This document shows, piece after piece, positions 1,020-4,162 of a stretch of DNA of 23,159 nucleotides (the stretch's first letter is position 1; each line of letters starts with the position of its first letter). The notes under the pieces were generated by a model. The model worked only from the letters and a program-made list of their open reading frames with translations. It was not told the DNA's origin and ran no database searches. The stretch lies in IMG/VR virus record IMGVR_UViG_3300013000_000010, positions 1 to 23,159 of that record; one strand, written 5' to 3'. A program made the translations under genes and the position numbers. This DNA is from a virus.

Positions 1020-1202
1020 ATGAAGTACAGCGAGTTTCGCAGGTGGTTACTCAGCATGGGGGTAGAGTTAACGAAATCCCCTGGTGGAAGCAGCCACTTT
1101 AAAGCGAGGTACAATGGCCGTATAAGCATTGTTCCTTTCCACGGGGCGAAGGAGATACCAGAGCCTCTACGGAAGAAAATAATTAAGGATTTGGGGCTTT
1201 AG
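1020..1202 (+). CDS. hicA: HicA-family mRNA interferase toxin
   Basis: 60 aa, basic, with the MKYSEFRRWL...GSSH.K...VPFHG.KEI...IIKDLGL HicA signature including the catalytic His. Lies upstream of a HicB. Confidence 0.9.
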   Translation: MKYSEFRRWLLSMGVELTKSPGGSSHFKARYNGRISIVPFHGAKEIPEPLRKKIIKDLGL

Positions 1203-1238
1203 GCCCCACCTTTTTCGTATCTGCTGCAGGAGAAAACC

Positions 1239-1688
1239 ATGTTTGTATACCCGGTACAGTTGGAGCACGACAAACCAACCGGCTCTTATGTTGTTTCATG
1301 TCGTGATCTGCCATTACTGAACTCAGTAGGCGATACGGTAGAGGATGCGCTGCTAAACGCGGCTGAAGCTGTTGTTCTGGCAATCTCTATCGAAATGGAC
1401 GAGCGCCGTATGGTGCCGCTGGCCAGTAAGGCGAAGAAGGGCGAATATCTGGTAGGCGTGCCGGTGCTGGTGGCCATGAAGGCTGTTTTACACAATTCGA
1501 TGATCGAGACCGGCACACGAAAAGCAGACCTGGCGCGCAGTATGAACCTGAAAGGCCCGCAGGTTGACCGGCTGCTTGATGTGCATCATCCCTCAAAGGT
1601 GGAATCAGTAGAGCATGCGATCCACCAGCTCGGACGTGCAGTAAGGTTGGGAACGGTTGAGGCGTTTGCTCCAAATAAGCCCGTATGA
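1239..1688 (+). CDS. hicB: HicB-family antitoxin with C-terminal HTH
   Basis: YPV.LE...Y.VS.RDLP...S.GDT.EDAL..A.EA N-domain, plus C-terminal RKADLAR...QVDRLLD..H.SK HTH. Confidence 0.88.
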   Translation: MFVYPVQLEHDKPTGSYVVSCRDLPLLNSVGDTVEDALLNAAEAVVLAISIEMDERRMVPLASKAKKGEYLVGVPVLVAMKAVLHNSMIETGTRKADLARSMNLKGPQVDRLLDVHHPSKVESVEHAIHQLGRAVRLGTVEAFAPNKPV

Positions 1689-1797: not shown

Positions 1798-1841
1798 CCT
1801 ACTTTCAACTTGCTGAATTAAATGGGAAAAAGTAGGTTTTA

Positions 1842-1945
1842 CATTAGTCTATTCATGGTAAAAGTTAGTCTATTCATGTTAGATGTTAGTCTGTTCATGG
1901 TAATTGTTAGTTTATTCATGGTAGGGTGTTAGTCTATTCATGGCG
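1842..1945 (+). repeat. Five origin iterons (incC-like), consensus TGTTAGTCTATTCATGGTA
   Basis: TTAG cores at 1844, 1865, 1886, 1907 and 1929 (21-22 bp period, two helical turns), immediately upstream of repA. Confidence 0.93.
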
Positions 1946-2871: not shown

Positions 2872-3097
2872 CGTTAGGTGATTCATGGCGAACGTTAGGT
2901 GAAAACCGGTAACTCACGCATAACGTTAGGCGATTCATGCACGGCATTAGTCTATTCATGGCAAATGTTAGAAAATAGCTGCATTTTTAGGCGTCATGCG
3001 GACAAAACGCCCAGCACACCATGAATAGACTAACGTTTAACGCTTCAGGGTAATAAACACCATGAATAGACTAACGCTTACCATGAATAGACTAATG
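2872..3097. repeat. Downstream copy-control iterons (incA-like) in both orientations
   Basis: Forward copies at 2872-2890, 2924-2942 and 2945-2963 (plus a partial at 2893). Reverse copies (ACCATGAATAGACTAA) at 3017-3035, 3058-3076 and 3079-3097. Confidence 0.9.
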
Positions 3098-3186
3098 TCC
3101 ATGCCATATCAGGTTTGATGTAACTGCTACTGCCCGTCACGAAACCAGCAACGTTTACCGTGCACTGTTATCCCGATTACCAGAAT

Positions 3187-3210
3187 AAAAAAAGCCGCCC
3201 GAAGGCGGCT
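3187..3210 (-). terminator. Intrinsic terminator of the small-peptide mRNA
   Basis: Minus strand reads AGCCGCC-TTCG-GGCGGC followed by T7, starting 4 nt after the TAA of the 45-aa ORF. Confidence 0.85.
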
Positions 3211-3214
3211 AGCT

Positions 3215-3352
3215 TTATTTGCCGTGATTAACAGTAATTTGGGTAGTTATGTTGGTCGTTACAGACCAGCCAGTGCTACCAGAAGCTGCAACCACTCCTG
3301 CAAGTGTCAAAAGTGCTGACACTGACAGGGAGACGATTTTTAATCGACTCAT
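3215..3352 (-). CDS. 45-aa small hydrophobic peptide, candidate type I toxin (MSRLKIVSLSVSALLTLAGVVAASGSTGWSVTTNITTQITVNHGK)
   Basis: Below the ORF-track cutoff and translated by hand. Purine-rich RBS (GCAGAGGAAAGG) before the ATG, basic N-terminus followed by a hydrophobic helix, its own terminator and a long structured leader. Confidence 0.7.
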   Translation of the reverse strand: MSRLKIVSLSVSALLTLAGVVAASGSTGWSVTTNITTQITVNHGK

Positions 3353-3667
3353 AAGGCCTTTCCTCTGCATTTCCGCTGATGAAGAGCGCCACCGGCGACG
3401 TTCTTACATCAGACCCGCAGATAAACTTTGAGCAAAGTAATCGCCTGCGAGCTTTACGGAATTTTAGTGGCCACGCCATTCGTTCACCGGTGCCAGGTGT
3501 GGAGTGCCTGGTGACGTGGAACTAATACATGATTACCCACAAATGCAATGTTACCAACCTGTATATTTGCTTTTCAGATATAAAAATCGCTTGCCGCATG
3601 GCAATAAATCATCTAGTCCAGGGCTGTATATTGTTGTTAAGGCACCCTACACCCCAAGATGTAGTGT

Positions 3668-3676
3668 TTATCCACA
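3668..3676 (+). promoter_or_regulatory. Perfect DnaA box between the divergent peptide and sRNA units
   Basis: Exact TTATCCACA consensus. Function here is unknown. Confidence 0.4.
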
Positions 3677-3754
3677 ACATTACTCACAGTGGGTGCGGCA
3701 GTAGTGTCTATCCCATTTGACACACGTGACGTGTATCTTATTTTGTTGCGGACC

Positions 3755-3782
3755 TTGTTATCGTAACCCCTATGCGTATACT
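3755..3782 (+). promoter_or_regulatory. Sigma70 promoter of candidate antitoxin sRNA
   Basis: TTGTTA (3755-3760), 16-nt spacer, TATACT (3777-3782). The predicted start at ~3788-3790 coincides with the start of the antisense segment. Confidence 0.6.
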
Positions 3783-3787
3783 GAGCC

Positions 3788-3899
3788 TGAGCAAAGTAAT
3801 CGCCTGCGGGATAGAAAAAATTTCGCCGGTGAGCAGAAAGAAGGGTGGAGCCTTCTGACTGAGTTACTTTCAAAAAAGCCGCCTTTGGGCGGTTTTTTT
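3788..3899 (+). ncRNA. Candidate ~110-nt antitoxin sRNA
   Basis: Promoter upstream, terminator at 3872-3899 and no credible ORF. Its first 21 nt (TGAGCAAAGTAATCGCCTGCG) are identical to 3429-3449 and are therefore perfectly antisense to the leader of the minus-strand peptide mRNA. Confidence 0.68.
3872..3899 (+). terminator. Intrinsic (bidirectional) terminator
   Basis: A6-GCCGCC-TTTG-GGCGG-T7. Confidence 0.85.
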
Positions 3900-4162
3900 G
3901 TGCCTGTAGCAACGGTTTTTGGAACATCATAACTTTATTTTTTTAGCTTTCAACTCCATACCATGCTTAGCTTTGCACCTCACGCGCGCCACTCATACTG
4001 TGCATAGACAAAATCATAAATGCAGCTGTTCTTCTCGATCAAGCCCACCAGATATAGGGTTTTGCAAAACGCACATAACTGAGGGAAGTCAGTTAGCAAC
4101 GCTATGAGATTGCCATGAAACCAGCAACATTAGTCTCATGGGACGACTCTGGCCGCCAGCAT

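What the first reader, a model, noticed from the sequence alone, without database searches (positions are those of the whole stretch)
3187..3899. Unannotated divergent type I toxin-antitoxin-like locus next to the replicon
Seen: a minus-strand 45-aa signal-peptide-like ORF (3352-3215) has an RBS, a UUCG terminator and room for a leader of at least ~140 nt. A divergent plus-strand unit has a promoter (3755-3782) and terminator (3872-3899) but no credible ORF. An exact 21-bp direct repeat (3429-3449 = 3788-3808) makes the 5' end of the sRNA perfectly antisense to the leader about 80-100 nt upstream of the ATG, extending to 23 nt with G-U pairing. Known: this layout matches tisB/istR-1, shoB/ohsC, zorO/orzO, dinQ/agrB and timP/timR. 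Inference: the peptide matches none of these by eye, so it may be a new or distant TimP-like family acting in addiction or defence on a phage-plasmid.
Basis: partly seen in the sequence, partly recalled or inferred. Interest (0 to 1): 0.85.

Follow-up and report, generated by a model that had tools for sequence, protein, structure and literature searches.

The report
New antisense-controlled small-peptide plasmid module
Next to the replication origin of a Pantoea phage-plasmid lies an unannotated gene pair: a 45-residue exported-looking peptide and a divergent ~110-nt small RNA that pairs with the peptide's mRNA at two co-evolving sites, so it looks like a new family of RNA-controlled (type I) toxin-antitoxin modules, though toxicity is untested.

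Summary
The 45-codon minus-strand ORF (3352-3215), its RBS and UUCG terminator are there. So are the plus-strand promoter and terminator unit and the exact 21-bp direct repeat (0 expected by chance).

Comparison adds much more. I found the same module in 11 other loci: 3 metagenomic phage-plasmid alleles, 6 Pantoea plasmids that include IncF-type conjugative ones, and 2 genome contigs.

- **Seed pairing.** In all 12 loci the first 20-23 nt of the sRNA, starting just after a conserved TATACT -10, pair with the peptide leader 54-100 nt upstream of the ATG. The paired sequence differs between loci and changes on both sides together. No permutation out of 100,000 reached the cognate score.
- **Loop-loop contact.** A second contact was not in the finding. 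An sRNA hairpin loop is complementary to the loop of the mRNA's 5' hairpin. Four matched versions exist: GUGGAG/CUCCAC, CUGAGAA/UUCUCAG, CUGAUAA/UUAUCAG and CUGCGAA/UUCGCAG.
- **Peptide.** The ORF is under purifying selection (dN/dS about 0.2). Its roughly 25 relatives are all unnamed. It matches no Pfam, NCBIfam, PHROG or Rfam family and does not match TimP.

Best reading (about 0.6): a new type I toxin-antitoxin family with the tisB/istR and timP/timR layout. Toxicity, transcripts and the addiction role are inferred, not shown. The scan had noted this same stretch once more (e1-5692184), but not on other DNA.

The parts
3186..3214 (-). Intrinsic terminator of the peptide mRNA. The stem is 3193-3210 with a UUCG loop, followed by a U run.
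   Evidence: 7 pairs, 6 G-C. The same hairpin is conserved at the 3' end of the ORF in all 12 loci.
3215..3352 (-). 45-codon ORF plus stop. It has a basic N-terminus, a hydrophobic segment, a small-residue hinge (AASGSTG) and a polar tail with alternating hydrophobic residues that ends in TVNHGK.
   Evidence: dN/dS is 0.17-0.23 and most differences fall at third codon positions. AlphaFold2 gives a helix over residues 3-25 and a tail with no helix or strand assigned, at mean pLDDT 73.
3357..3365 (-). Shine-Dalgarno sequence GAGGAAAGG.
   Evidence: Read from the sequence. It is invariant in the four close alleles.
3376..3412 (-). Hairpin between the sRNA target and the RBS. Its apical part, UCGCCGGUG (3390-3398), can pair instead with CACCGGUGA near the 5' end.
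   Evidence: The outer stem CUGAUG/CAUCAG becomes CUGACG/CGUCAG in L005, a compensatory change.
3429..3451 (-). Target of the sRNA 5' end in the leader. It spans 23 nt, at -100 to -76 from the ATG.
   Evidence: Against the window, L005 has three positions changed on both sides plus one G-U. L009 has one double change and a 1-nt bulge. L001 has one G-U.
3484..3492 (-). CACCGGUGA. It is the candidate 5' partner of a long-range helix within the mRNA. It is also complementary to sRNA segment 3822-3831.
   Evidence: It is invariant in group A, so the support is by analogy with group B covariation only.
3493..3511 (-). 5'-terminal hairpin of the mRNA, CCAGG / 9-nt loop / CCUGG. The loop holds CUCCAC (3504-3499), the partner of the sRNA loop.
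   Evidence: Matched loop variants occur in other loci.
3529..3557 (-). Candidate weak promoter of the peptide mRNA: -35 TTGGTA (3557-3552) and -10 AATCAT (3534-3529). The start would be near 3522, where conservation begins.
   Evidence: The four group A alleles have otherwise diverged sequence here. All four still carry a -35/-10 pair at the same position, placing the start at -169 to -172. This is inferred, not shown.
3755..3782 (+). sRNA promoter, TTGTTA-16-TATACT.
   Evidence: The -10 TATACT is present at the same distance from the seed in all 12 loci.
3789..3899 (+). The sRNA, about 111 nt. It consists of a 5' seed, two hairpins and a terminator.
   Evidence: The fold z-score is -4.3. Relatives keep the same design, and in group B 10 of 40 stem pairs show compensatory changes. 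No Rfam family matches.
3788..3810 (+). Seed: the 5' end of the sRNA, complementary to 3429-3451.
3800..3832 (+). sRNA hairpin 1. Its 3' arm, UUCGCCGGUG (3822-3831), repeats the mRNA's own UCGCCGGUG. It is therefore complementary to CACCGGUGA at 3484-3492.
3839..3856 (+). sRNA hairpin 2, with the 6-nt loop GUGGAG (3845-3850).
   Evidence: L005 and L009 keep the loop on a different stem.
3872..3899 (+). sRNA terminator: an A run, a GCCGCC/GGCGG stem and U7.

Best explanation
This is a type I toxin-antitoxin-like module of a previously undescribed family.

A weakly promoted, highly structured mRNA of about 335 nt (about 3522 to 3187, minus strand) encodes a 45-aa peptide. The peptide has a Sec-signal-like or membrane-anchoring N-terminus. 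A divergent sRNA of about 111 nt (3789-3899) is made from a better promoter and blocks synthesis of the peptide.

Recognition uses two sites. An sRNA hairpin loop (GUGGAG) contacts the loop of the mRNA's 5'-terminal hairpin (CUCCAC). The free 5' end of the sRNA then forms a 23-bp duplex with the leader 76-100 nt upstream of the start codon.

That site is far from the RBS, so repression is probably indirect. It could work by blocking a ribosome standby site, or by breaking a long-range fold that translation needs (as in timP). RNase III cleavage of the duplex could add to either.

On plasmid loss the sRNA would decay first and the peptide would harm the cell, which would stabilise the plasmid.

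**Shown here:** the sequence features, the conservation, and the co-variation of both contacts.

**Inferred:** both transcripts and their ends, the order of binding, the mode of repression, toxicity and the addiction role.
For: 1. The repeat is exact and unique in the window and in the whole element.
2. Twelve loci share the design. In each, the sRNA's first 20-23 nt pair with its own leader at -54 to -100.
3. The pairing co-varies. L005 differs from the window at three positions changed on both sides, and L009, L029 and L038 show further changes.
4. Cognate duplexes score -32 to -44 kcal/mol, against -11 to -21 between the two groups. No permutation out of 100,000 reached the cognate sum.
5. 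The loop-loop contact has four matched versions. In L028 and L038 both sRNA loops and the mRNA loop changed together.
6. The sRNA stems co-vary: 10 of 40 pairs in group B. Both RNAs fold better than every shuffle, with z-scores of -3.4 and -4.3.
7. The ORF is under purifying selection. The peptide family aligns end to end across 21 sequences.
8. The module moves as a unit among unrelated plasmid backbones: Rep3 phage-plasmids, IncFII and IncFIC conjugative plasmids, and a leading region near psiB. This is typical of addiction modules.
9. The seed has diversified into several specificity classes. That fits selection against cross-protection between co-resident plasmids (inference).
10. The layout, sRNA length, UTR length and signal-like peptide parallel the tested timP/timR system (PMC7667032, PMC11228461).
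Against: - No transcript data could be obtained.
- Toxicity is untested.
- In the plasmid relatives the hydrophobic segment is only about 12 residues and is followed by P/G-rich GGEG. That looks more like a cleavable signal peptide than the membrane-spanning helix of classic type I toxins. The product may therefore be a short exported peptide, and harmfulness is not implied.
- The promoter for the peptide mRNA is weak and only inferred.
- RBS sequestration, common in type I toxin mRNAs, is not clearly predicted.
- There is no homology to any tested toxin.
Confidence: 0.6

Rival explanations
1. The RNA pair is real, but the peptide is not a toxin. The sRNA would tightly gate a small exported peptide with another job for the plasmid or phage. 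Possible jobs are exclusion of related elements, envelope remodelling, signalling or a bacteriocin-like activity.
For: The peptide has signal-peptide features: basic residues at the N-terminus, then a 12-20 residue hydrophobic run, then small residues before a polar tail. The most conserved part is the C-terminal tail. In TimP the N-terminal signal sequence is the more conserved part. Endogenous TimP itself is not lethal when timR is deleted (PMC7667032).
Against: From general knowledge, tight two-site antisense control by a neighbouring, divergent sRNA with private specificity classes is known almost only for toxic peptides. The module also keeps company with plasmid maintenance and leading-region genes on unrelated backbones.
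Confidence: 0.22
2. The sRNA mainly regulates something else, such as the replicon or host genes. Its match to the neighbouring leader would then be secondary.
For: The sRNA lies beside the iteron replicon. By general knowledge, many plasmid antisense RNAs control replication.
Against: The seed has no other site at up to 3 mismatches in the 90.7-kb element. RepA here is an iteron-type Rep3 initiator. The sRNA always travels with the peptide gene, also on IncF plasmids with other replicons. Both of its contact sites co-vary with the leader.
Confidence: 0.05
3. The repeats are leftovers of a local duplication, kept alike by gene conversion and with no RNA-level function.
For: The sRNA gene is co-linear with the leader's plus strand: seed, then CCGGTG segment, then GTGGAG. 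This suggests that it arose by duplication.
Against: Conversion would make the copies identical, yet in L001, L005 and L009 the copies differ at the same position in a way that keeps a G-U pair. Only short islands match, while the sequence between them has diverged. The promoter, terminator and hairpin stems are kept through compensatory changes.
Confidence: 0.03

Closest known systems
timP/timR (RyfA, Rfam RF00126) of enterobacterial chromosomes
   Same: The genes are divergent and non-overlapping. The sRNA is about 100 nt, and its 5' end pairs with the 5'UTR well upstream of the RBS: 18 nt in timPR, 20-23 nt here. The UTR is long and structured, 144-146 nt against about 170 nt here. The peptide is about 40 aa with a Sec-type signal-like N-terminus. 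Both have a candidate long-range contact within the leader that the sRNA could disturb (PMC7667032, PMC11228461).
   Different: There is no RNA or peptide homology: ryfA scores 10 bits against a cut-off of 80, BLASTP finds no alignment, and hhalign gives 0.2% probability. This module is borne on plasmids and phage-plasmids and is confined to Pantoea-like hosts. It has an added loop-loop contact and many private seed classes. Its conserved part is the C-terminal tail, not the signal region.
tisB/istR-1, shoB/ohsC, zorO/orzO and dinQ/agrB (E. coli chromosomal type I systems)
   Same: The gene arrangement is divergent. The sRNA pairs far upstream of the RBS, which is the standby-site logic described for tisB and zorO.
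   Different: No Rfam or Pfam match was found. By inspection there is no LexA box, unlike tisB and dinQ. Those toxins are 26-29 aa pure transmembrane helices, while this peptide has a polar tail of about 20 residues. Those systems are chromosomal.
hok/sok (also flm, srnB and pnd) of plasmids
   Same: It is a plasmid-borne, RNA-controlled small peptide used for post-segregational killing. By general knowledge, the free 5' tail of the antisense RNA attacks a structured target.
   Different: hok and sok overlap and act through the mok leader ORF. Here the genes do not overlap and there is no conserved leader ORF. No Hok_Gef Pfam match was found.
par (Fst RNA I / RNA II) of Enterococcus plasmid pAD1
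   Same: Complementarity comes from direct DNA repeats transcribed in opposite directions, plus a loop contact. So recognition is multi-site (general knowledge).
   Different: par is convergent with a shared terminator and is found in Gram-positive hosts. The Fst peptide is unrelated.
Kissing-loop antisense control of plasmid replication (CopA/CopT, RNA I/RNA II)
   Same: A 6-7-nt loop-loop contact precedes an extended duplex. Sequence classes define specificity, comparable to incompatibility groups.
   Different: Those systems control replication. Here the target is the mRNA of a small peptide.

Membership tests
Type I toxin-antitoxin system (class) | Small ORF that encodes a hydrophobic or membrane-targeted peptide | tested here: met
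   The conserved ORF is 45 aa and under purifying selection. It has an N-terminal hydrophobic helix.
Type I toxin-antitoxin system (class) | Adjacent antisense sRNA gene complementary to the toxin mRNA | tested here: met
   A 23-bp duplex with compensatory changes in 12 loci. No permutation out of 100,000 reached the cognate score.
Type I toxin-antitoxin system (class) | The peptide is toxic when expressed | not testable with these tools
   This needs induction in cells.
Type I toxin-antitoxin system (class) | The sRNA represses toxin synthesis and is less stable than the mRNA | not testable with these tools
   No RNA data were available. Only the structured mRNA (z -3.4) hints at stability.
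timP/timR (RyfA RF00126) | The mRNA matches the Rfam ryfA model | tested here: not met
   The score is 10 bits at E 9 against a gathering score of 80. There is no match in the whole element or in the related loci.
timP/timR (RyfA RF00126) | The peptide is homologous to TimP | tested here: not met
   BLASTP gives no alignment. hhalign of the 21-sequence profile against E. coli TimP gives 0.2% probability.
timP/timR (RyfA RF00126) | Divergent sRNA whose 5' end pairs with the 5'UTR | tested here: met
timP/timR (RyfA RF00126) | Long-range (pseudoknot) contact in the leader that translation needs and the sRNA disrupts | tested here: inconclusive
   A candidate 9-bp contact links 3484-3492 with 3390-3398. 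In group B the equivalent is UUCGGU with ACCGAA, with compensatory variants in L038 and L029. There is no variation within group A and no functional test.
tisB/istR-1, shoB/ohsC, zorO/orzO, dinQ/agrB | Sequence match to their RNA or peptide models | tested here: not met
   No Rfam hit at gathering score, and only chance-level hits below it. No Pfam or NCBIfam hit for any of 12 peptides.
hok/sok | Hok_Gef peptide, overlapping antisense RNA and a mok leader ORF | tested here: not met
   No Pfam match. The two transcription units are about 265 bp apart. By eye there is no conserved upstream ORF: the AUG-UAA at 3381-3376 is absent in L005.

The most novel reading that the evidence does not exclude
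The peptide is not a membrane-pore toxin. It would be exported through Sec and cleaved after the small-residue hinge (AAS/GS here, GEG/M in the plasmid relatives). This would release a 17-21-residue peptide with alternating hydrophobic residues (WSVTTNITTQITV here, MNINTYINVPVTVIH in relatives). That peptide would act in the periplasm or outer membrane as an added beta-strand on a beta-barrel or its assembly machinery. It would be the first RNA-controlled toxin-antitoxin system with a target beyond the inner membrane. It would also come with a natural set of orthogonal sRNA/leader pairs.
Probability: 0.15. Interest if true: 0.85.

Novelty: new variant of a known kind. Interest (0 to 1): 0.62.

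Why it matters
Type I toxin-antitoxin families are few, narrow in distribution and hard to find. Their peptides are below annotation cut-offs and their RNAs carry no protein signal.

This one sits beside the replicon of P1-like phage-plasmids and on conjugative plasmids of Pantoea, a plant-associated genus. It is either not annotated or called 'hypothetical protein'. It may help explain how these elements are kept in their hosts.

It is also a natural experiment in RNA recognition. One scaffold carries two separate contact sites, each with several matched natural variants. This gives ready-made compensatory mutants for testing how a loop-loop contact and a 5'-tail duplex cooperate. It also gives a small set of possibly orthogonal sRNA/leader pairs.

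The exported-looking peptide with a short hydrophobic segment is unusual for this class. It could point to a target outside the inner membrane.

Tried and rejected
The 96-kb contig that carries allele P0002 could not be fetched.
- **No RNA holder was listed** by the look-up of sequencing runs.
- **Read laying** on four DNA runs gave only near-identical contigs and no new variation in the seed or target.
- **Megablast of 3100-4000** against plasmids and phages found nothing. Sensitive blastn matched only the origin-side flank, but that hit led to pEuc3.
- **tblastn with the window peptide** against plasmids and phages found nothing even at E 10.
- **Exact 21-mer scans.** Two hits in unrelated MAGs (Planctomycetaceae, Acidobacteria) are taken as chance. 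Roughly 0.3 such hits are expected in that collection.
- **The 17-nt sRNA pattern** gave ten unrelated viral contigs.
- **The leader 22-mer** was absent from genome contigs.
- **The profile search of 1.84 billion representatives** found only the family's own cluster plus two spurious long proteins.
- **The ESM Atlas** gave no usable hit.
- **Rfam** gave nothing at gathering score in the window or in seven related loci. The weak RNAI, Trp_leader and STnc370 hits are all far below their cut-offs and lie on terminators, so I rejected them.
- **Relatives of the element** could not be drawn by the genome search, because it is a virus record.
- **A sigma-54 reading** of the conserved TGGCAT motif upstream of the plasmid-type mRNAs was rejected by eye, because the GG-N10-GC spacing is not met.
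- **A LexA box** near the peptide promoter was looked for by eye. Only CTG-N13-CAG was found, so SOS control is not supported.
- **RBS sequestration in the mRNA** could not be established from the folds.
- **No fold search** was run on the AlphaFold2 model, because a single helix plus an unstructured tail would give no meaningful matches.
Full report
**1. Observation**

- The minus-strand ORF 3352-3215 encodes 45 residues. It is preceded by GAGGAAAGG and followed by a G+C-rich hairpin with a UUCG loop and a U run (stem 3193-3210).
- On the plus strand, TTGTTA-16-TATACT (3755-3782) is followed about 90 nt later by an A6/stem/U7 terminator (3872-3899).
- The 21-mer at 3429-3449 recurs exactly at 3788-3808. 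It has no other site at up to 3 mismatches in the window, with 0 expected in 100 shuffles. It has no other site in the whole 90,665-bp element either.
- The two units are read in opposite directions, so the direct DNA repeat makes the two RNAs complementary. The duplex extends to 23 bp with one G-U and lies at -100 to -76 from the ATG.

**2. Setting**

- The window is the first 23 kb of a complete virus record with terminal repeats.
- It carries an iteron-flanked Rep3-type initiator (1987-2871), a Ref nuclease, umuDC, HicAB, a Cre-like recombinase and several phage-family genes.
- Its origin-side flank matches 90-95-kb Pantoea plasmids. One of these, pEuc3, also encodes tail and maturation proteins.
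The module sits between the right-hand iterons and umuDC.

**3. Close relatives (group A)**

- Exact-word and peptide searches found three further alleles in metagenomes: L001, L005 (the same as L007 and L008) and L009.
- Conservation covers the ORF, the leader up to 3523, and the sRNA unit with its -10. The roughly 265-bp spacer between the units is unrelated in the different alleles.
- The upstream in-frame ATG of the window is not conserved, so the 45-aa form is the gene.
- Pairwise dN/dS is 0.17-0.23, and 6-11 of the 9-17 differences fall at third positions. The ORF is therefore coding.
- Seed and target change together. Against the window, L005 has A-U to G-C, G-C to A-U and U-A to C-G, plus one G-C to G-U. 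L009 shares one double change, adds a 1-nt bulge and gains a pair. L001 has the G-U only. No allele has a disrupting mismatch.

**4. Distant relatives (group B)**

- In pEuc3 the same slot, between iterons and umuDC and flanked by conserved sequence, holds a module with no detectable DNA similarity apart from the terminators.
- That module has a 39-aa minus-strand ORF and a plus-strand unit behind TTGCAA-16-TATACT. An 18-nt direct repeat links the start of the unit to the leader (family D3).
- Using it as a query found the module on further Pantoea plasmids. Two are conjugative IncFII and IncFIC plasmids, where it lies next to an SOS-response peptidase gene.
- A remnant lies near psiB in a P. 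alhagi plasmid.
- Two genome contigs also carry it: Ca. Pantoea borealis and an isolate labelled Enterobacter sp..
- The peptides of both groups align end to end. L029 bridges them: it has the SG-GW hinge of group A and the INAPVTVI tail of group B.
- A profile search found 20 family proteins. None carries a functional name, and the two that are labelled are called hypothetical proteins of Pantoea.
- None of 12 peptides hits Pfam or NCBIfam, and the window peptide has no PHROG hit.
- Neither the window nor seven related loci hit any Rfam family at gathering score.

**5. First contact: the seed**

- In all 12 loci the sequence that starts 5 nt after TATACT pairs over 20-23 nt with its own leader at -54 to -100.
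- The paired sequence falls into at least six classes.
- Duplex energies of the 24-nt seed with its own leader are -32 to -44 kcal/mol. Between groups A and B they are -11 to -21. Between classes within group B they are mostly -15 to -30, because a common core, GCUUGUGUU, is shared.
- The cognate leader is the best target for 11 of 12 sRNAs. No permutation out of 100,000 reached the cognate sum.

**6. Second contact: loop-loop**

This was not part of the finding.
- In group B the sRNA has two hairpins, each with the 8-nt loop CCUGAGAA. Their stems vary through compensatory changes: 10 of 40 pairs.
- The mRNA begins with a hairpin whose outer stem also co-varies. Its apical part contains UUCUCAG.
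- In L028 both sRNA loops read CCUGAUAA and the mRNA reads UUAUCAG.
- In L038 both loops read CCUGCGAA and the mRNA reads UUCGCAG.
- In group A the single loop is GUGGAG (3845-3850). It is kept on different stems in the window and in L005/L009. The 9-nt loop of the mRNA's 5' hairpin contains CUCCAC (3504-3499).
- Four matched versions of a 6-7-bp loop-loop helix, two of them three-way changes, are hard to explain without an RNA-RNA contact.
- This also shows that the mRNA includes the hairpin, so the leader is at least 155 nt here.

**7. Ends of the peptide mRNA**

- No strong promoter is seen.
- In the four group A alleles, whose upstream sequences have otherwise diverged, a -35/-10 pair lies at the same place. 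It reads TTGGTA or TTGATC, then 16-18 nt, then AATCAT, GATCAT or AATGAT. It would start the RNA at -169 to -172, near 3522, exactly where conservation begins.
- Most group B loci show a TG-extended weak -10 that would place the start 10-15 nt before the loop hairpin.
- A weak toxin promoter against a good antitoxin promoter is the usual logic of such modules. The start sites remain inferred.
- Both RNAs fold better than all shuffles, with z-scores of -3.4 and -4.3.

**8. How repression may work**

- The duplex ends 76 nt (group A) or about 54 nt (group B) before the ATG, so the RBS is not covered.
- By general knowledge, the tested precedents for such distances are standby-site occlusion (tisB, zorO), leader-ORF coupling (hok) and disruption of a pseudoknot that translation needs (timP; PMC11228461).
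- By eye there is no conserved leader ORF.
- A long-range contact is possible. CACCGGUGA lies just 3' of the loop hairpin (3484-3492). UCGCCGGUG lies in the apex of the hairpin before the RBS (3390-3398). Together they give 9 bp.
- Group B has UUCGGU with ACCGAA at equivalent places. L038 has UUUUGGU with GCCAAAG and L029 has UCGGC with GCCGA, which are compensatory.
- In group A the sRNA's second segment, UUCGCCGGUG (3822-3831), repeats the downstream strand and so could displace it. This is what the scan's other note on this stretch proposed (e1-5692184). I could confirm the complementarity but found no variation within group A to test it.
- My working model is: loop-loop docking, then zippering of the 5' tail, then loss of a leader fold or standby site that initiation needs. 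I hold the last step at no more than even odds.

**9. The peptide**

- It has one or two basic residues at the N-terminus and a hydrophobic run. The run is about 20 residues here but only about 12 in group B.
- A hinge of small residues follows: AASGSTG here, and a proline or tyrosine followed by GGEG in most group B members.
- The tail is 17-21 polar residues in which every second residue is hydrophobic. It is the most conserved part.
- AlphaFold2 gives a helix for residues 3-25 and assigns no helix or strand to the tail, at mean pLDDT 73.
- By inspection this is the n/h/c pattern of a Sec signal peptide, with small residues at -3 and -1. No signal-peptide predictor was available.
- TimP also has such a signal, which is not cleaved, and it ends up in the inner membrane (PMC7667032).
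- Whether this peptide stays anchored or is released is open, and so is its toxicity.

**10. Comparison and novelty**

- The module works like the divergent class of type I systems. It comes closest to timP/timR in its dimensions and in the kind of peptide.
- It fails both sequence tests for membership of that family and the tests for every other modelled family.
- Full-text searches found no description of it. That is not proof of absence.
- I file it as a new family, a new variant of a known kind. Its distinctive points are two co-evolving contact sites with natural specificity classes, carriage on both phage-plasmids and conjugative plasmids of one genus, and a signal-peptide-like toxin candidate.

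**11. Verdict**

- The RNA-RNA relationship is about as well supported as comparative sequence analysis allows, at roughly 0.9.
- That the pair is a toxin-antitoxin module serving plasmid maintenance is an inference from architecture and context, at about 0.6.
- The main rival is an antisense-gated exported peptide with a non-toxic role, at about 0.2.

Noticed in passing
L028:1684-1860 (P. agglomerans plasmid pPA-MXU-90): An IS3-family element is inserted inside the terminator hairpin of the sRNA gene. The sRNA there lacks its own terminator, while the peptide gene is intact. It may be a natural test of what happens when the antitoxin RNA is altered.
   Followed up: partly
L030:1531-1641 (P. 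alhagi plasmid pPALTYR11Z): A 37-aa member of the peptide family, with its terminator, lies near psiB. It has no recognisable leader target, loop hairpin or sRNA gene, so it is probably a decayed copy.
   Followed up: partly
window 4010-4080: A non-coding block of about 70 nt (AAAATCATAAATGCAG ... CCCACCAGATATAG.GTTTTGCAAAACGCACATA) is conserved in the window, L001, L005/L007 and pEuc3 (L024:5560-5630). The sequence around it is not conserved. It lies between the module and umuDC, and its function is unknown.
   Followed up: no
window 3926-3953 (minus strand): A promoter-like site (TTGAAA-16-TATGAT, 10 of 12) points into the two-way terminator at 3879-3892, which would give a transcript of only about 40 nt. 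The sequence beyond the terminator differs in L001, so this is probably chance.
   Followed up: partly
window 1020-1688: A HicA/HicB-like pair (60 aa and 149 aa), identified by eye and not scanned here, lies on the other side of repA. The replicon may therefore be flanked by two different addiction-type modules.
   Followed up: no
window 1822-1932 and 2940-3100: Iterons with the core CCATGAATAGACTAA flank repA on both sides and in both orientations, as in the P1 incC/incA arrangement. The right-hand set ends about 80 bp before the peptide mRNA terminator.
   Followed up: no
L026 and L029 (conjugative IncFII and IncFIC Pantoea plasmids): In these plasmids the module lies between an SOS-response-associated peptidase gene and a DUF6685 gene. 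In the phage-plasmids it lies next to umuDC. Sitting beside DNA-damage genes in both settings may be more than chance.
   Followed up: no
window 3793-3800 and 3863-3870: In the window's sRNA, AAAGUAAU in the seed can pair with GUUACUUU just before the terminator. Relatives keep ACUUU. The seed may be partly masked in the free sRNA.
   Followed up: partly
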